From Erysipelothrix larvae (GTDB lineage: Bacteria > Bacillota_I > Bacilli_A > Erysipelotrichales > Erysipelotrichaceae), in NCBI RefSeq assembly GCF_001545095.1, contig NZ_CP013213.1:240001-272000 (forward strand): 32,000 nucleotides of DNA, written 5' to 3'. The first letter of the stretch is position 1. Every line of letters starts with the position of its first letter. Below, in pieces: positions 4,400 through 31,422 of the stretch. The notes beneath the pieces are model-generated. The model made no database searches. It was given only the letters and a program-made list of their open reading frames with translations, and was not told the origin of the DNA. The translations under genes were made by a program, and so were the position numbers.

Positions 4400-5010
4400 A
4401 CTTGAATAAGGCTAAATTGGGGATGAATTTGTTCAATTGCCTGAAATTAAAGATATTCAAAATATATAAGGAGCAGTACGAGCACATGGTGTACGTAATA
4501 AAGCTTGTATACAATCTTTTGAACAACTTATTGATAAGTAAGAAAACGAAGTTGCACATATATCATCGAGGAAAAATTCAACCAACGTAATATATCTTGG
4601 TTCACAACCTAAAGATAATCGTAAGCGATTTAGTGAAATAGCAGGAACCCAATTGGTTTGGAGCAAATCTTGAAAAGACTCTATTGAAATTGATCGCGTA
4701 ACCCCTGAACGCTTAGGGAAATATGAAAAAAGAAGATCGCTGTAAACAACGATTGATTGGATCCCTTTGATTTTTAAATTAACACGAAGGGAAAAGTATA
4801 CCTATGCCCGAGAACCAATTTGGGCAGAAAAATCGAAAGAAAAGAAAAAGCCGATTTCTTCAATATCCATGAGGAATAAGAAATACGTGAAAACTCCGCT
4901 GTGACAAGAAGAAACGCACGCAACTTAACTGAAATAGTAAATGATGGCAATAGAAATACAGCTGAAGCAATTGAGAGAAGAAAAAAATAGGAACTGGGCA
5001 TATTAAACGT
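4400..5010 (+). pseudogene. Degenerate ORF of unknown family, probably mobile-element or plasmid derived
   Basis: One reading frame stays protein-like for ~200 codons (...YLGSQPKDNRKRFSEIAGTQLVWSKS*KDSIEIDRVTPERLGKYEKRRSL*TTIDWIPLIFKLTRREKYTYAREPIWAEK...) but is broken by several in-frame stops. I do not recognise a family. Confidence 0.25.
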
Positions 5011-6955: not shown

Positions 6956-7690
6956 ATGACGAATACTGAGTATGGACATTTGCTTAGCAACTTTGAATAT
7001 CTTAAATTTATAGGGATTCAGAATCATACAGAAGAAACAATTGATTTTGTAAACAACTTCAGGTATACAGATGTCCAAGGCTTAATAAAAATGACAGACT
7101 ATGAGGAGTGGTATCGTGAAGCCAATATAATAAAGGCGACGGTGATAGTTGGAGGATTCCCACACTTTAAGGGATTGGATGACTTTGACTTTCAAGAAAA
7201 TATTAATAAAGATCAAATTATTGATTTCATAACGCATCGCTTTATCCACGAGAATCGGAACATTGCATTCATGGGTTCTAGTGGTGCAGGGAAAACGCAC
7301 TTAGCAGCGTCGAATGGTATTTTATTTGCCAAAAAGCAGGAATCGCATACTACATTAAATGTCACGCACTTATCACTCAATTGAAGAAAGCAAAGCTGGA
7401 AAACAGATTTGAAGCAGAATCAAACGTTTCGTGAAATACAAATGTCTATTCATCGACAAGATTGGTTACTTGCTCTTCAATGCAGCGAATTTATAGATGT
7501 TATTCCAACTGGTCGATAAGTATCACGCGTCAGAGTCAACAATCTTCACCACAAACATGAATTTCTCAAAATGGGAAGATGTATTTAGTAATCCGACAAT
7601 CGCTCATTCAACATTTGTCCGTGTTCTTCGCCACGCTCATGTGTCTATATCGCAGGAAAATCATGTAAGTTTTAGGATTATTATGATGAG
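6956..7690 (+). pseudogene. istB: IS21-family IstB helper ATPase remnant (frameshifts plus an in-frame TAG)
   Basis: Walker A GSSGAGKTHLA lies in the first frame. LITQLKKAKLENRFEAE, LFIDKIGY (degenerate Walker B) and MLFQLVDKYHASESTIFTTNMNFSKWEDVFSNPTIAHSTFVRVLRHAHV lie in other frames. There is a TAG at 7494-7496. No IstA transposase lies upstream. Confidence 0.8.
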
Positions 7691-7805
7691 AATGGAGGCG
7701 CAGATCAATTGCACATACTACATACTAATGTTGACAGGTATAGCTAAGTTAATCTTGTATGTTACCAAACTCCTTATCATAATTATACCTAAAGGGGGGC
7801 ATCGA

Positions 7806-8087
7806 ATGAAAAAAAGAATAATACTCAAGTTATCATTGGTCTTAATTTCAGTTTTGGTTATTTCAAGAACAGCAGAACTTATTGACTGTAATAGGCTTTC
7901 AAAAATGAAACCTCCATTACTTGCGATAAATACAAGGAATAATACGAATGTAGGATTGGGTTATACAATACAATTCGATCCCCTTTATCCCCACCAAATA
8001 ACAGGGGTGGTTCTATGGGGAGGGGATCAGAATAGAATCAGTGATCCATATTACGCATATTGTTTATGCTATTATAATTTTAAATAG
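7806..8087 (+). CDS. Small secreted or membrane-anchored hypothetical protein
   Basis: 93 aa from ATG 7806 with an AAAGGGGGG Shine-Dalgarno and an N-terminal hydrophobic signal/anchor (MKKRIILKLSLVLISVLVI). The ORF-track call 7497-8087 is a run-through from the IstB remnant. Confidence 0.45.
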   Translation: MKKRIILKLSLVLISVLVISRTAELIDCNRLSKMKPPLLAINTRNNTNVGLGYTIQFDPLYPHQITGVVLWGGDQNRISDPYYAYCLCYYNFK

Positions 8088-19538: not shown

Positions 19539-19764
19539 GAGGTGTCATACTACTGGAAATTAGGCCTAATACACGCATTAAATATTTATAACATAACGCT
19601 TGAAAATGGCGATAATTTTGGTGAAGTGGGAATGGGTAATGAAAGTTAACTAAAACATTATAACAATATGTATGGTATTTTTTTGAGTACTCAAATATAT
19701 AAGAAATCTATGACCATACTAATGTTAAATAATTATTTTAAAACGATACAAAAATTTTTTTATC

Positions 19765-19773
19765 TGCTAGAAT
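19765..19773 (+). promoter_or_regulatory. Extended -10 promoter of capsule locus 1
   Basis: TGCTAGAAT, with GATACA 17 nt upstream as a weak -35. The identical ATCTGCTAGAATTT recurs at 30348-30361. Confidence 0.6.
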
Positions 19774-19795
19774 TTTCATGTAATCAAATATGTTT

Positions 19796-19833
19796 ATGTG
19801 GCAATGGGGGAATTTTCATTGGGGTAGTGCCAT
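19796..19833 (+). promoter_or_regulatory. Conserved leader hairpin with an ops-like GGGGTAGTG
   Basis: ATGTGGCAATGGGGGAATTTTCATTGGGGTAGTGCCAT. The stem GTGGCA/TGCCAT encloses a G-rich loop. It is nearly identical to 30383-30419 and lies the same 23 nt from the -10 element. Confidence 0.6.
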
Positions 19834-19910
19834 AGAACTCATAAAGAGTGATTCTTTATCATTTACACGCTGTGAGATACTTATACGGCGTTCTTTATAC
19901 TACTCATAAA

Positions 19911-19996
19911 ACGTGATTCTACCTGGAAGGTGTTGATTGATATAATGCGTCCTGCATTTTTATCAAATCCTGGCCACTTAAGAATCGCGTTTTTTG
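19911..19996 (+). terminator. Leader-internal terminator-like structure (candidate attenuator)
   Basis: ACGTGATTCT (19911-19920) pairs with AGAATCGCGT (19981-19990) over 10 bp with one G-U pair, followed by a T-run. The loop holds an AATGC-gtcct-GCATT hairpin. Confidence 0.5.
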
Positions 19997-20092
19997 CTTA
20001 TGAAATATTACGAAACCTGTGAGAGTGGTTAGTCATAACAATACGAGATTATTGAAGGATTCTCATTGTCACAATGAGAGTAGGAGGAAAGT

Positions 20093-20815
20093 GTGGAACC
20101 AACTAGAGATTTATTGACAGATCAAGAAGATGATTTGAGTTTTGTGGAATTATACGAAGCCATCAAAAAGAAGATGATACTGATTTTGATCGTTGGACTT
20201 ATATGTGGGGGATGTGCATTTGGGTTTGCATCGGTGTTCATTCGCCCGATTTACGAAAGCAGTGCAATTTTGATTGTGAACAATCGAAGGGATGAATCAA
20301 ATCAAGCAATTACTTACGATGAAATTACATCAGCACAAAATCTAGCACCTGTCTATAGCATAATAATCAAAAGTAATATCGTCATGGGAAGACTCATCGA
20401 GAACTTGTCATTGGATATGACAACCAATGAATTAGCGTCCAAAGTGACCGTATCAGCAATTGATAAAACACAGGTTATTAATGTTGCAGTAAGGGATGAG
20501 AATCCAAACAATGCATTACTTTACATACAAGAAATTGTTGAAGTTGCACCTGAAATAATAGTAGAACTCGTTGAAGCAGGTTCGGTTGGCGTAGCATCTA
20601 TTCCACAGCTTCCGATTAATCCAGTATCACCAAACGTAAAAATGATTACAATTATGGCGTTTGTTTTTGGTGTGATGATATCAATTGGGGTTGTTCTATT
20701 AGGTCATATCTTAGACAGAACCTATCGGTTACCAGAACCTCTGGAGAAAGAACTGGGGATTCCAGTTATTGGAATAATTCCAAATTTTGAACAAGTAAGT
20801 CGAGGATTACGTTGA
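20093..20815 (+). CDS. Wzz/CpsC/CapA-like polysaccharide chain-length determinant (BY-kinase transmembrane modulator)
   Basis: 240 aa with two TM helices flanking an extracytoplasmic domain and the C-terminal VIGIIPNF kinase-activating tail. GTG start 5 nt after AGGAGG. Confidence 0.9.
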   Translation: MEPTRDLLTDQEDDLSFVELYEAIKKKMILILIVGLICGGCAFGFASVFIRPIYESSAILIVNNRRDESNQAITYDEITSAQNLAPVYSIIIKSNIVMGRLIENLSLDMTTNELASKVTVSAIDKTQVINVAVRDENPNNALLYIQEIVEVAPEIIVELVEAGSVGVASIPQLPINPVSPNVKMITIMAFVFGVMISIGVVLLGHILDRTYRLPEPLEKELGIPVIGIIPNFEQVSRGLR

Positions 20816-21540
20816 TGTTTAGGAAGAAAGTTAAGAAAAATAAACTGAATATTTTTGAAGGGACTCATATAATTCATGATGAATCTCCCTTCGCATATTT
20901 AGAAGGATATAAATCGTTGCGTACTAATTTAAGTTTTTTAACTTATGGCGGAGAAGTAAAAACGATTCTAGTTACAAGCAGTGTAGCACATGAAGGAAAG
21001 AGTACAATTGCGATAAACTTGGCACGCTCTTTAGCAATGGCCGGAAACTATGTGTTGTTAATTGATGGGGACTTAAGAGCACCAGTAATTCAAAAGTATC
21101 TGAAAATCACAAACAACATCAACAATGGACTATCTTCTGTACTTGCAAATAAGATTCCAGCAGAAGAAGCAATCTACAAGTATCCAGCAATGGAAATTGA
21201 AATTATGTTTTCGGGACCCATCCCTCCAAATGCGGTTGAACTGTTATCGAAAGGACGTGCTAAGCGACTTATTGGTGAATTAAGAGAACGATACGATTAC
21301 ATTATCATTGATTCTCCGCCTTCAGGTATCGTCACAGATGCAAAGGTATTGTCCCAAAGTGTGGATGGACTTCTGTATGTTGTTCGCCAAAACTTTGCTG
21401 AGAAAGATCTAATCAAAAGAACAACAAAAGATTATATAGCATCTGGTACGAACATTTTAGGAGTAGTCTTTAATAATTTCACACAAGATAACTTTGCGCG
21501 TAAGCGTAAGTTTAACAATTACTACTCAAGTGAAGACTAG
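20812..21540 (+). CDS. CpsD/CapB/YwqD-like tyrosine-protein kinase (BY-kinase)
   Basis: Walker A HEGKST, Walker A' LLIDGDLR and Walker B IIIDSPP. The C-terminal tail has only two tyrosines (NNYYSSED). Overlaps the modulator stop. Confidence 0.9.
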   Translation: MMFRKKVKKNKLNIFEGTHIIHDESPFAYLEGYKSLRTNLSFLTYGGEVKTILVTSSVAHEGKSTIAINLARSLAMAGNYVLLIDGDLRAPVIQKYLKITNNINNGLSSVLANKIPAEEAIYKYPAMEIEIMFSGPIPPNAVELLSKGRAKRLIGELRERYDYIIIDSPPSGIVTDAKVLSQSVDGLLYVVRQNFAEKDLIKRTTKDYIASGTNILGVVFNNFTQDNFARKRKFNNYYSSED

Positions 21541-29898: not shown

Positions 29899-29947
29899 AA
29901 CCTCTTCCTATTACACTGATACCAAAGTGTTGGGGGAGGTTTTTTTG
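29899..29947 (+). terminator. Rho-independent terminator closing capsule locus 1
   Basis: AACCTCTTCC pairs with GGGGGAGGTT across a ~23-nt loop and is followed by T7. Confidence 0.7.
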
Positions 29948-30351
29948 TAAAAGAAGAAGATAACTTATGTATTGAAGAATAAACGGGTTGAAAATAAATG
30001 TAGCCAATAATGTGATTTGAGATTAATGAAATTAATAACTAACAGCGAAAAAAGACATTTATAGCAAAATGGATTGGAATATAATACGATCAAATGATGA
30101 ATAGGATTCGTTAGAAAAAATGAATTTCGTTTGACATGAATGATTTCTATATCAAACCAAAGATTGATTGGGGAAGACGATATTAACTATAATTATCACA
30201 CATTTTCGCTTATTAAGTGTTTAATGGGTTATTATTTTTTAATTCAGAATTTAGATAAATAGTCGTTCTATATCAAATTGATTGACTTAACATTCAGTTT
30301 CATGCAGCAGATTTCTATTTTTTTGAGAGCGTGGTAAAAAAAATACAAATC

Positions 30352-30360
30352 TGCTAGAAT
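30352..30360 (+). promoter_or_regulatory. Extended -10 promoter of capsule locus 2
   Basis: TGCTAGAAT, within the same ATCTGCTAGAATTT block as locus 1. Confidence 0.6.
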
Positions 30361-30382
30361 TTAGAGGTAATCTTATAAGTTG

Positions 30383-30419
30383 ATGTGGCAATGGGTGGAA
30401 TTCCAAGGGGTAGTGCCAT
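30383..30419 (+). promoter_or_regulatory. Second copy of the conserved leader hairpin with GGGGTAGTG
   Basis: ATGTGGCAATGGGTGGAATTCCAAGGGGTAGTGCCAT, 23 nt downstream of the -10 element as in locus 1. Confidence 0.6.
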
Positions 30420-30496
30420 TTAATTCTTTTATTGTATCTTTAAGTTTTTTAAAGTGTTTTTACATATTATTGAGCGGATTATTTACTACTCTTACA

Positions 30497-30577
30497 GCGG
30501 GATTCTTAAAATTAGTCTATATGCGTGAATGTTCATTCACAAAGCATAACAGTCTACTTAAGAAATCTCGCTTTTTT
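30497..30577 (+). terminator. Leader-internal terminator-like structure, copy 2
   Basis: GCGGGATTCTT (30497-30507) pairs with AAGAAATCTCGC (30560-30571) with one bulge, followed by T6. The loop holds a nested TATGC/GCATA and GTGAAT/ATTCAC hairpin. Confidence 0.5.
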
Positions 30578-30696
30578 AGTTTTTTTATCGCGATGTATCT
30601 TAGGTATGCCTGTGAAGAACACTAATTATATTGTCCTTCATATCAAAGGTTTGAAAGAGAGTTGCCATAGTTTCATTATGGAAACGGGAGGTAAAT

Positions 30697-31422
30697 GTGG
30701 AACCTAAGAATAACATAAAAATGAATCAGGAAGAAGAAATAAGCATTGTTGATCTTTTGGGGGTAATCCGATCAAAACTTGTGCAAATTGCAATTGTGGG
30801 GGTTGCGTTTGCATTGTTTGCTTATATATTTTCTGTATTCTTTATTAATCCGGTATACGAAAGTAATGCGGTACTTATTGTAACCAACCGAAAAGATTCT
30901 GGAGGAAGTTCAATTACGAATGATGAAATTACATCTGCCAAGAATCTTGCATCAGTTTATAGCATTATCATCAAGAGTAATAACGTGATGGGAAATGTGG
31001 TGAATAATTTGTCGCTTGACATTACACCAGAGTCACTTGCAAAGAAAGTCACTGTTTCTGCAGTAGATAGTACACAAGTAATCCGTGTGTCTGTGCGTGA
31101 TACTGATAAAAAGGCAGCACTTCGCTATACTCAAGAAATAGTGAATGTCGCACCAGATATAATTGTAGAACTTGTAGGTGCTGGTTCAGTGGGAGTTGTA
31201 TCAACACCACAGTTGCCAACATCTCCGGTCTCACCTAATGTTCGTATGAATACATTAGTTGCTTTTGTATTGGGGCTAGCACTTAGTATCGGAATCGTTC
31301 TAATTAAGCACTTCTTAGATCGAACATATAAAATCCCTGAAAATGTTGAAGAAGAGTTGGGATTTCCAGTTATTGGTATTATTCCCAATTTTGAAGATGC
31401 AAGCCGAGGTATGAGAAAATGA
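30697..31422 (+). CDS. Wzz/CpsC/CapA-like modulator, paralogue of 20093-20815
   Basis: 241 aa with the same architecture and C-terminal VIGIIPNF tail. GTG start after GGGAGG. Confidence 0.9.
   Translation: MEPKNNIKMNQEEEISIVDLLGVIRSKLVQIAIVGVAFALFAYIFSVFFINPVYESNAVLIVTNRKDSGGSSITNDEITSAKNLASVYSIIIKSNNVMGNVVNNLSLDITPESLAKKVTVSAVDSTQVIRVSVRDTDKKAALRYTQEIVNVAPDIIVELVGAGSVGVVSTPQLPTSPVSPNVRMNTLVAFVLGLALSIGIVLIKHFLDRTYKIPENVEEELGFPVIGIIPNFEDASRGMRK

What the first reader, a model, noticed from the sequence alone, without database searches (positions are those of the whole stretch)
30348..30696. Second full copy of the cps leader: promoter, hairpin, attenuator and pre-SD hairpin
Leader 2 has the same order of parts as leader 1. 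Shared sequence islands include TACTACTC..A..CG.GATTCT and CTTAAGAA.TC.CG.TTTTTT, and the rest has diverged. The ORF-track calls inside it (30380-30625 and 30525-30707) have no counterpart in leader 1. One regulatory architecture driving two different polysaccharide loci suggests coordinated or mutually exclusive control. An inverted repeat, AGCAGATTT/AAATCTGCT (30306-30314 and 30347-30355), brackets the -35 region in this copy only and could give locus-specific control.
Basis: seen in the sequence. Interest (0 to 1): 0.6.

Follow-up and report, generated by a model that had tools for sequence, protein, structure and literature searches.

The report
Duplicated terminator-containing capsule operon leader
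The second capsule-sugar operon in this window starts with a true, selectively maintained copy of the roughly 330-base untranslated leader of the first operon; both contain a built-in transcription stop signal and a shared way to mask it, so the two operons are probably gated by one still unknown signal.

Summary
Observation confirmed. Leader 2 (30349-30696) is homologous to leader 1 (19762-20092): local alignment z = 26 against shuffles. Identity is about 79-88% in four islands and 30-43% between them. Silent sites of the adjacent cpsC/cpsD pairs are saturated, so the islands are held by selection.

The islands are arms of RNA helices:
- a 5' hairpin;
- a long-range helix, GGGGUAGUG:UACUACUC;
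- a long terminator hairpin plus U-run, with two compensatory pairs between the copies.

In both copies a conserved GGAAUU can pair with the terminator's 5' arm (GAUUCU). Folding of growing transcripts gives the same order in both: hairpin, long-range helix, anti-terminator, terminator.

The copy-2 inverted repeat is real and larger than reported: 19-nt arms, 18/19 complementary. It ends inside the extended -10.

The family matches nothing in Rfam, and the genome has no second NusG-like gene. It was not found in 27 congeners or about 400 genomes each of the family and the order. A second strain carries it, and one metagenomic relative has a diverged third version.

Best reading: an undescribed terminator/anti-terminator attenuator shared by both operons, trigger unknown. 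Mutual exclusivity has no support. Earlier scan notes on leader 1 of this genome reached a similar view.

The parts
30306..30324 (.). Left arm of the copy-2-specific inverted repeat (AGCAGATTTCTATTTTTTT)
   Evidence: 19-nt arms, 95% complementary; beyond 300 shuffles; unique in the genome. Absent upstream of leader 1.
30337..30355 (.). Right arm of the inverted repeat (AAAAAAATACAAATCTGCT). It overlaps the TG (30352-30353) and the first T of the -10.
   Evidence: and the sequence.
30349..30362 (+). Promoter core ATCTGCTAGAATTT, identical in both leaders. It is an extended -10 (TGcTAGAAT; -10 at 30355-30360) with a poor -35 (TGGTAA, 30332-30337).
   Evidence: The consensus scan misses it because the -35 is weak. 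In the metagenomic relative, a TATAAT aligns with TAGAAT. Promoter use is inferred, not shown.
30383..30419 (+). Conserved 5' element with hairpin H1 (GTGGCA 30385-30390 / TGCCAT 30414-30419)
   Evidence: P(H1) = 0.96 in the short nascent transcript. The relative has UGUGAC/GUCACA, a G-C to A-U compensatory change.
30397..30404 (+). GGAATTCC in the H1 loop: candidate anti-terminator strand, complementary to GGGATTCT (30499-30506)
   Evidence: 8 bp here, 6 bp in leader 1. Present in the MFE of both nascent RNAs. Pair probability 0.92 here and 0.85 in leader 1. Shuffle control only moderate: 10/200 and 13/200.
30406..30493 (+). Long-range helix H2: AGGGGTAGTG (30406-30415) with TACTACTCTT (30484-30493). 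It encloses a variable region that holds hairpin CTTTAAG/TTTAAAG (30438-30454).
   Evidence: P = 0.94. The enclosed hairpin sits in the same place as GAGTGAT/ATCATTT of leader 1 but has a different sequence.
30496..30586 (+). Intrinsic terminator (attenuator): 5' arm GCGGGATTCT (30497-30506), structured apical part, 3' arm AGAAaTCTCGC (30561-30571), then T6 (30572-30577), AG and T7
   Evidence: -26.6 kcal/mol; the leader 1 counterpart is -29.3. P = 0.87. Relative to leader 1, A-U becomes G-C and U.G becomes G.U (read). The simple scan misses it because its loop limit is 8 nt.
30609..30615 (+). Conserved island CCTGTGA after the terminator; partner or role unknown
   Evidence: Also present, in the same order, in the metagenomic relative.
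30661..30685 (+). GTTGCCATA (30661-30669), complementary to the 5' element TGTGGCAAT, followed by the pre-SD hairpin (CCATAGT/ATTATGG or GTTTC/GAAAC) that abuts the SD
   Evidence: 9 bp here; 14 bp at the homologous place in leader 1.. Predicted strongly only in leader 1 (P = 0.81 against 0.04).
30686..30699 (+). SD GGGAGG (30686-30691) and GTG start of cpsC2 (30697)
   Evidence: Wzz + GNVR domains.
19762..20092 (+). Leader 1, the paralogous copy. -10 at 19768-19773; H1 19797-19834; H2 19822-19829/19898-19905; terminator 19908-19996; pre-SD hairpin 20059-20081.

Best explanation
Leader 2 is a genuine paralogue of leader 1, maintained by selection. Each is a 5' untranslated leader of about 330 nt, probably transcribed from an extended -10 promoter, and each acts in cis as a transcription attenuator.

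Proposed sequence of events as the RNA grows:
1. A conserved 5' hairpin (H1) folds.
2. H1 gives way to a long-range helix (GGGGUAGUG:UACUACUC).
3. A conserved GGAAUU pairs with GAUUCU, which is the 5' arm of a long terminator hairpin.
4. When the 3' arm (AGAAUC...) and the U-run appear, the terminator can displace that pairing and stop transcription about 210 nt from the start.

Whatever stabilises or disrupts the GGAAUU:GAUUCU/H2 fold would decide how many polymerases read on into cpsC-cpsD and the sugar genes. This could be a small ligand, a protein, or polymerase speed. Because both operons carry the same device, they should respond to the same signal.

The 19-bp inverted repeat over the promoter of copy 2 adds a locus-specific layer at initiation, most simply an operator.

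Shown: homology, selection, the helices and the terminator signature. Inferred: the transcription start, that termination actually occurs, the switch, and the trigger.
For: Homology and selection:
- Homology is far above chance.
- Silent sites are saturated. At identical amino acids, third positions are only 25/76 and 21/71 identical in cpsC and cpsD. Yet 13-14-nt blocks of the leaders are identical.

Structure:
- The islands coincide with helix arms.
- The terminator base keeps pairing through two double changes, and three hairpins keep their place with a different sequence.
- Both terminators are long hairpins followed directly by U6.
- Ensemble folding of growing transcripts gives the same order in both copies: H1, H2, anti-terminator, terminator.
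- GAUUCU is sequestered upstream more than in most shuffles: 0.87 and 0.96 against about 0.5.

Other sequences:
- A second strain has 0 changes in leader 2 and 1 in leader 1, in a terminator internal loop.
- A diverged third leader in front of a cpsC homologue of another species keeps the five islands in order. It also shows a compensatory G-C to A-U change in H1.

Against processive antitermination: no + strand internal terminators in locus 1 and only one NusG-family gene.
Against:
- There are only two, or effectively three, independent sequences, so covariation is anecdotal.
- The anti-terminator helix is short (6-8 bp with 2 G.U). 5-6% of shuffled upstream sequences sequester GAUUCU equally well.
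- At equilibrium the terminator wins in both copies, so read-through needs a kinetic or factor-dependent effect that is not identified.
- In the distant relative the strand that pairs with GAUUCU lies at the very 5' end, not in the hairpin loop. Its corresponding terminator also lacks a proper U-run.
- No candidate regulator gene lies nearby.
Confidence: 0.55

Rival explanations
1. The conserved 5' hairpin is a recruitment site for a processive antitermination factor (LoaP/RfaH-like protein, or an EAR/put/conAn-like RNA). The factor modifies RNA polymerase so that it ignores the leader terminator and any later ones.
For: Two operons sharing a near-identical leader hairpin followed by an intrinsic terminator is exactly the dfn/mln arrangement of LoaP (PMC12691694). 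Capsule operons are classic targets of such systems (established knowledge: RfaH/ops, UpxY, EAR).
Against: - Only one NGN/NusG-family gene in a 99.9% complete genome.
- H1 has a 23-nt loop, not a UNCG tetraloop.
- No match to any Rfam family, including the eps-associated element, at E <= 10.
- No + strand internal terminators in locus 1 for such a system to bypass.
- The leader terminators have unusually long stems. That property made terminators resistant to conAn antitermination (PMC10325885).
Confidence: 0.12
2. There is no switch. The leader terminator is a constitutive, leaky dampener, and/or it releases a stable small RNA of about 210 nt. The conserved 5' structures serve RNA stability or processing, and the pre-SD hairpin protects the mature mRNA 5' end.
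For: - At equilibrium the terminator dominates in both copies.
- The anti-terminator is only moderately better than shuffles.
- A hairpin abutting the SD is kept in all three leaders with different sequences, which fits a 5' stabiliser role. That role is inferred from established knowledge of Bacillota mRNA decay.
Against: A simple dampener does not explain conservation of about 60 nt of 5' element, of H2, and of GGAAUU inside an otherwise variable loop across saturated divergence. It also does not explain the matched three-way change at one position. In leader 1 the U forms U.G in the terminator and U:U in the anti-terminator; in leader 2 the G forms G.U and G-C.
Confidence: 0.17
3. The conserved stretch acts as DNA: an operator downstream of the promoter (TGGCA..TGCCA inverted repeat) bound by a shared repressor or activator. 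The RNA folds are incidental.
For: - The 5' element contains an inverted repeat and starts 20 bp after the -10.
- All three promoters have poor -35 boxes, which suggests activator dependence.
- Copy 2 carries a clear DNA-type palindrome over the promoter.
Against: - The arms are 23 nt apart in this genome and about 32 nt apart in the relative, with a compensatory arm change. That fits RNA pairing, not a fixed operator.
- Conservation continues 200 nt downstream in segments that pair with each other and end in a U-run.
Confidence: 0.06
4. Ribosome-mediated (leader-peptide) attenuation from the shared ATG (MWQW...).
For: Both leaders have ATG TGG CAA TGG at the start of the 5' element. In leader 1 the frame stops just before the terminator.
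Against: - There is no SD before the ATG in leader 1.
- The frames diverge after 4 codons because of an indel: 39 codons in leader 1 against 81 in leader 2, where the frame runs through the terminator.
- In the relative the ATG is followed at once by TGA.
Confidence: 0.02

Closest known systems
LoaP-dependent leaders of the dfn and mln operons (Bacillus velezensis; PMC12691694)
   Same: Two long biosynthetic operons in one genome carry near-identical leader hairpins, each followed by an intrinsic terminator inside the 5' leader. The leader contains all the cis determinants.
   Different: There is no LoaP or other second NusG-family gene here. The hairpin is a large-loop structure, not a UNCG tetraloop. 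This leader has an explicit alternative pairing for the terminator's 5' arm. No internal operon terminators were seen.
Classical terminator/anti-terminator attenuators and riboswitch expression platforms (for example pyr/PyrR, T-box, purine and SAM riboswitches of Bacillota)
   Same: The layout is a structured 5' domain, then a terminator whose 5' arm can alternatively pair with an upstream segment. The decision is made co-transcriptionally within about 210 nt of the start.
   Different: No match to any of 4227 Rfam families. The effector is unknown. The target is a capsule/EPS operon beginning with the Wzz-like modulator and BY-kinase genes.
eps-associated RNA (EAR) of the Bacillus subtilis eps operon
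   Same: A conserved structured RNA inside an exopolysaccharide operon of a Bacillota species, linked to terminator read-through.
   Different: EAR lies between epsB and epsC and acts processively on distal terminators (established knowledge). This element lies before the first gene, carries its own terminator, and does not match the Rfam model.
RfaH/ops (JUMPStart) and Bacteroides UpxY leaders
   Same: Long untranslated leaders in front of capsule operons, several per genome. The GGGGTAG in the 5' element superficially recalls the ops core GGTAG.
   Different: The element does not match the ops 12-mer outside GGTAG. The genome has no specialised NusG paralogue. GGGGUAGUG is explained here by pairing with UACUACUC.
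Staphylococcus aureus cap5/cap8 promoter inverted repeat
   Same: An inverted repeat just upstream of or over the promoter of a capsule operon that begins with capA/capB-type genes. This compares with the copy-2-specific repeat here.
   Different: That repeat is 10 bp and lies upstream of the -35 (established knowledge, not tested here). This one has 19-nt arms, spans the -35 and spacer, and runs into the -10. No binding protein is known.

Membership tests
LoaP-type antitermination leader | A loaP gene (specialised NusG paralogue) in the genome, usually next to the target cluster | tested here: not met
   PF02357 search of the whole 99.9% complete genome finds one locus only, at C1:338028-338348, the housekeeping position. 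No such gene in the window.
LoaP-type antitermination leader | Small UNCG-tetraloop hairpin in the leader | tested here: not met
   H1 is a 6-7 bp stem with a 23-nt loop. Feature definition from PMC12691694.
LoaP-type antitermination leader | Intrinsic terminator within the 5' leader, downstream of the hairpin | tested here: met
   Long hairpin plus U6 at 19908-19996 and 30496-30577.
Known RNA families (riboswitches, T-box, EAR, RAT, leaders) in Rfam 15 | Covariance-model match at or near the gathering score | tested here: not met
   No hit at gathering thresholds in the window. Only chance-level hits at E <= 10 around either leader.
RfaH/ops (JUMPStart) | ops 12-mer GGCGGTAGnnTG in the leader, and an RfaH-type paralogue | tested here: not met
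   Only GGTAG is shared: GGGGTAGTGCCA against GGCGGTAGnnTG, by reading. Single NGN gene.
Intrinsic (factor-independent) terminator | Stable stem with G-C pairs at the base, immediately followed by a U-run | tested here: met
   Leader 1: 13-bp base including ACGUGAUUCU/AGAAUCGCGU, then U6. Leader 2: GCGGGAUUCU/AGAAaUCUCGC, then U6. Actual termination not tested.
Terminator/anti-terminator attenuator (as a mechanism) | An upstream segment able to pair with the terminator's 5' arm, mutually exclusive with the terminator and conserved among homologues | tested here: inconclusive
   GGAAUU(CC):(GG)GAUUCU is present in both copies and in the nascent-RNA MFEs. However, 5-6% of shuffles sequester the arm as well. 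In the relative the partner lies elsewhere.
Leader-peptide attenuator | Conserved short ORF with SD whose translation controls the hairpin choice | tested here: not met
   Frames differ after 4 codons; no SD in leader 1; ATG-TGA in the relative.
Invertible (phase-variable) promoter | Inverted repeats flanking a promoter-bearing segment of roughly 100-300 bp, plus a site-specific recombinase | tested here: not met
   Only 12 nt lie between the 19-nt arms. The second strain has the same orientation. A search for a recombinase was not done.

The most novel reading that the evidence does not exclude
The two leaders, with the diverged metagenomic one, define a new lineage-restricted regulatory RNA class for capsule operons. 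It would comprise a sensing domain of about 110 nt (5' element, H2 and variable hairpins) that binds an unknown ligand or protein. It would act through a three-partner switch, in which GAUUCU pairs either with GGAAUU (read-through) or with AGAAUC (termination). This would give one signal simultaneous control over two different surface polysaccharides.
Probability: 0.35. Interest if true: 0.6.

Novelty: new variant of a known kind. Interest (0 to 1): 0.45.

Why it matters
Little is known about how Gram-positive capsule operons are controlled after initiation. The described cases mostly rely on NusG paralogues or on the eps-associated RNA.

Here two neighbouring, serologically different polysaccharide loci share a conserved leader with a built-in terminator and a plausible masking helix, in a genome that lacks any specialised NusG. 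That points to a different, RNA-structure-based checkpoint, and it offers a compact, easily testable system: about 210 nt and two natural variants.

The leader also marks the conserved left edge of a swapped cps cassette between strains. That is relevant to how capsule types are exchanged while regulation is kept.

The limits are clear. The family is tiny, no expression data exist, and the trigger is unknown.

Tried and rejected
- Rfam at gathering and permissive thresholds: nothing.
- Further copies in the genome: BLAST, nhmmer and covariance model R1 find only the two. The genome's other two cpsC loci have unrelated upstream regions without leader terminators.
- Homologues in 27 congeners: none by BLAST or CM. 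Their cpsC genes have short or no leaders.
- 150 family genomes by BLAST and CM: only chance hits inside ORFs.
- 5' motif in 400 family genomes: every hit lies inside a long ORF.
- Three-island pattern in 400 genomes of the order: none.
- Pattern scans of genome contigs (one chance hit in an Acetobacteraceae MAG, context not examined) and of metagenome contigs (none, twice).
- BLAST of the metagenomic leader against 400 family genomes: only short AT-rich hits.
- Upstream regions of closer CpsC relatives (P0121, P0130, P0122): cpsC is preceded there by another gene, with no leader.
- nhmmer did not recover the metagenomic leader. Its homology rests on the CM hit, the aligned promoter and 5' motif, and the five ordered islands.
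- Promoter motif ATCTGCTAGAAT elsewhere in the genome: two more sites, both apparently within coding sequence judging by context, so no regulon.
- Nearby regulator genes: none recognised.
- Ideas rejected: leader peptide, ops/RfaH, sigma-54-like TGGCA, rrn boxA-like GTTCTTTA (leader 1 only) and invertible promoter. Reasons are given in the report.

Full report
WHAT IS THERE. The window carries two tandem polysaccharide loci. Each begins with a Wzz/GNVR modulator gene and a BY-kinase gene: 20093-21540 and 30697 onward. Locus 1 ends in a hairpin followed by T7 at about 29899-29947 (sequence). Each locus is preceded by about 330 nt without a conserved reading frame. The finding concerns the second stretch, 30348-30696.

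CHECK OF THE OBSERVATION. A MAFFT alignment of the two leaders shows the same order of parts in both. The local alignment score is 83, against 20 +/- 2.4 for 500 dinucleotide shuffles (z = 26). BLAST gives 82% identity over 72 nt (E = 1.6e-12). Identity is concentrated in islands:
- promoter core ATCTGCTAGAATTT, 0.88;
- 5' element, 0.79;
- TACTACTC..CG.GATTCT, 0.79;
- CTTAAGAA..CGC plus the T-run, 0.79;
- SD and start, 0.74.
The stretches between the islands are at 0.30-0.43.

From the shared ATG, leader 1 reads 39 codons and leader 2 reads 81. A 1-nt indel puts the conserved GGGGTAGTGCCAT in different frames.

The inverted repeat in copy 2 is real and larger than described. Its arms are 19 nt (30306-30324 and 30337-30355), 18/19 complementary, with 12 nt between them. 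The longest arm in 300 shuffles was 14, and the arrangement is unique in the genome. The right arm contains the TG of the extended -10 and ends on the first base of TAGAAT.

IS THE SIMILARITY SELECTED? CpsC1/C2 are 60% identical and CpsD1/D2 are 71% identical. At codons for the same amino acid, third positions agree in only 25/76 and 21/71 cases. That is about the level I would expect from base composition alone (my estimate, not computed), so I read silent sites as saturated. Blocks of 13-14 identical nucleotides in non-coding DNA of the same age therefore reflect purifying selection, not recent duplication or conversion.

WHAT THE ISLANDS ARE. I listed every helix of 6 bp or more in each leader and kept those at homologous alignment positions. 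The clean shared set is:
- H1: UGUGGCA/UGCCAUA.
- H2: GGGGUAGUG/UACUACUC(UU).
- The base of a long hairpin. In leader 1 this is AAAACGUGAUUCU/AGAAUCGCGUUUU. In leader 2 it is GCGGGAUUCU/AGAAaUCUCGC. U6 follows directly.
- Hairpins that keep their position but not their sequence: inside H2 (GAGUGAU/AUCAUUU against CUUUAAG/UUUAAAG), at the terminator tip, and just before the SD (AUUCUCAUUG/CAAUGAGAGU against CCAUAGU/AUUAUGG).

Between the copies the terminator base changes A-U to G-C and U.G to G.U (columns). The terminator hairpins fold at -29.3 and -26.6 kcal/mol.

AN ALTERNATIVE PAIRING. A GGAAUU kept inside the otherwise variable H1 loop is complementary to GAUUCU of the terminator's 5' arm: 6 bp in leader 1 and 8 bp (GGAAUUCC/GGGAUUCU) in leader 2. 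The position that differs in the arm is matched in both partners. In leader 1 the U forms U.G in the terminator and U:U in the alternative helix. In leader 2 the G forms G.U and G-C.

The minimum-energy folds of both nascent RNAs, cut before the terminator's 3' arm, contain this helix stacked outside H2. Ensemble probabilities along transcript growth run the same way in both copies:
- H1: 0.94 and 0.96.
- Then H2: 0.97 and 0.94.
- Then the alternative helix: 0.85 and 0.92.
- Then, once the 3' arm and U-run exist, the terminator: 0.98 and 0.87.

As a control I shuffled everything upstream of the arm. GAUUCU is then paired upstream with mean probability about 0.5, and 13/200 and 10/200 shuffles reach the native values. 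The anti-terminator is therefore plausible and shared, but not proven by computation.

A further long-range complementarity exists between the 5' element and the stretch just before the SD. It is 14 bp in leader 1 and 9 bp at the homologous place in leader 2. It is predicted strongly only in leader 1.

HOW WIDE IS THE FAMILY?
- Nothing in Rfam.
- Only two copies in the genome. The genome's other two cpsC loci lack anything similar.
- No match in 27 congeners by BLAST or by a covariance model built here.
- None in 150 family genomes by BLAST and CM.
- None in 400 family genomes for the 5' motif, where all hits lie inside ORFs.
- None in 400 genomes of the order for the three-island pattern.
- None in two public pattern scans, apart from one hit in an Acetobacteraceae MAG. 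About two such hits are expected by chance on my own rough estimate, and I did not examine its context.

Protein-guided look-ups did find two informative relatives.

(a) A Logan contig from SRR6161627 is a second strain, 97% identical over 11.5 kb.
- Leader 1 differs at one base, 19979 T>G, in a terminator internal loop.
- Leader 2 and its inverted repeat are identical from 30298 to 30755.
- From 30756, about 60 nt into cpsC2, the sequence becomes about 15% divergent through cpsD2, and it is unrelated after that.
- The leader therefore lies in the conserved left flank of a replaced cassette.

(b) Contigs from ERR12379733/34/35/39 belong to another species, 65-69% identical in flanking genes.
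- They carry a cpsC homologue (55% identity) behind a 340-nt leader.
- Its TATAAT aligns with TAGAAT, and its 5' motif AGTTGATGTGACAAAGGGG matches AGTTGATGTGGCAATGGG.
- It has GGGGTG, ACGCGATTCT, CTTAAG and CCTGTGA in the same order.
- The five-island signature occurs nowhere else in 5.6 Mb scanned, and the three-island part nowhere in 400 genomes of the order.
- Its H1 is UGUGAC/GUCACA, a G-C to A-U compensatory change.
- Its best fold again has a 5' segment (GGAGUUG) pairing with CGAUUCU around an inner GGGGUGUU/AACACCCC helix. However, the pairing strand sits at the 5' end, and the matching terminator lacks a good U-run.
- nhmmer alone did not detect this leader.

MECHANISM. The best-supported reading is a cis-acting transcription attenuator shared by both operons, with a terminator and a competing upstream pairing. 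Its balance would be set by an unidentified effector.

Processive antitermination of the LoaP type is the closest described parallel: two operons, the same leader hairpin, a leader terminator (PMC12691694). Against it:
- the genome has a single NusG-family gene;
- the hairpin is not a UNCG tetraloop;
- locus 1 shows no internal + strand terminators above chance;
- long-stem terminators resisted at least the conAn system (PMC10325885).

A constitutive dampener or small-RNA-generating terminator cannot be excluded. A DNA operator reading fits poorly with the variable arm spacing, the compensatory change, and the pairing of distant islands. Leader-peptide control is rejected.

'Second full copy' is right. 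Coordinated control is a fair inference. Mutual exclusivity has no support. The copy-2 repeat is a good candidate for locus-specific control at initiation. It is too tightly spaced (12 nt) to be an invertible promoter, and it is unchanged in the second strain.

LIMITS. The species name Erysipelothrix larvae comes from earlier scan notes and was not verified here. Those notes, on leader 1 of the same genome, reached a similar view of a terminator-containing leader.
- the selection argument from saturated silent sites;
- the shared folding order of the two copies;
- the shuffle control for the anti-terminator;
- the extended inverted repeat;
- the second strain with its recombination break;
- the diverged third member.

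Noticed in passing
window 30756 onward (compare L039:10060 onward): Between this genome and a second strain (Logan SRR6161627 contig), identity is 100% through leader 2 and the first ~60 nt of cpsC2. It then drops to about 85% through cpsC2/cpsD2, and the sequence is unrelated after cpsD2. This is a recombination break that replaces the locus-2 cassette while keeping the leader.
   Followed up: partly
L040:4649-5003 (Logan ERR12379734 contig; also L041-L043): Diverged third leader in front of a cpsC homologue of another species. It has an SD-like GAGGAG followed by ATG-TGA (a start-stop) at the conserved 5' motif. It also has an extra terminator-like hairpin plus U-run at about 4711-4753 that the E. 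larvae leaders lack.
   Followed up: partly
window 30142-30156, 30263-30277, 30310-30318: The motif (GAT)TTCTAT(ATCAAA) occurs three times upstream of the leader 2 promoter, and the third copy lies inside the left arm of the inverted repeat. A similar GAAATCTATGACC lies about 64 nt upstream of the leader 1 -10. These are possible activator sites for promoters with poor -35 boxes.
   Followed up: no
window 30164-30193 and 30246-30255: A near-consensus promoter-like site (TTGATT-18-TATAAT) lies 160 nt upstream of the conserved -10. A 10-nt direct repeat of the -10/start region (AGAATTTAGA) lies 110 nt upstream. If the upstream site fires, the 19-bp inverted repeat would be transcribed as a hairpin.
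   Followed up: no
window 30609-30615 and 20016-20022: The island CCTGTGA after the terminator is conserved in all three leaders but has no consistent pairing partner. It resembles the 5' arm of H1 (UGUGR), so it could be a second copy of a protein-binding motif.
   Followed up: partly
genome C1:276496-278741 (outside the window, within locus 2): Two minus-strand ORFs (248 and 495 aa) interrupt the plus-strand run of locus-2 genes. I read them as IstB/IstA of an IS21-type element, but I did not scan them against any family. Broken IS21 helper ATPase (IstB) fragments lie at window 6956-8087.
   Followed up: no
genome C1:1921116-1921802 and 1906076-1906756 (minus strand): Two further cpsC paralogues make four Wzz/BY-kinase-type loci in a 2.5-Mb genome. 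Their upstream regions are unrelated to the leaders studied here and show no sense-strand terminator.
   Followed up: partly
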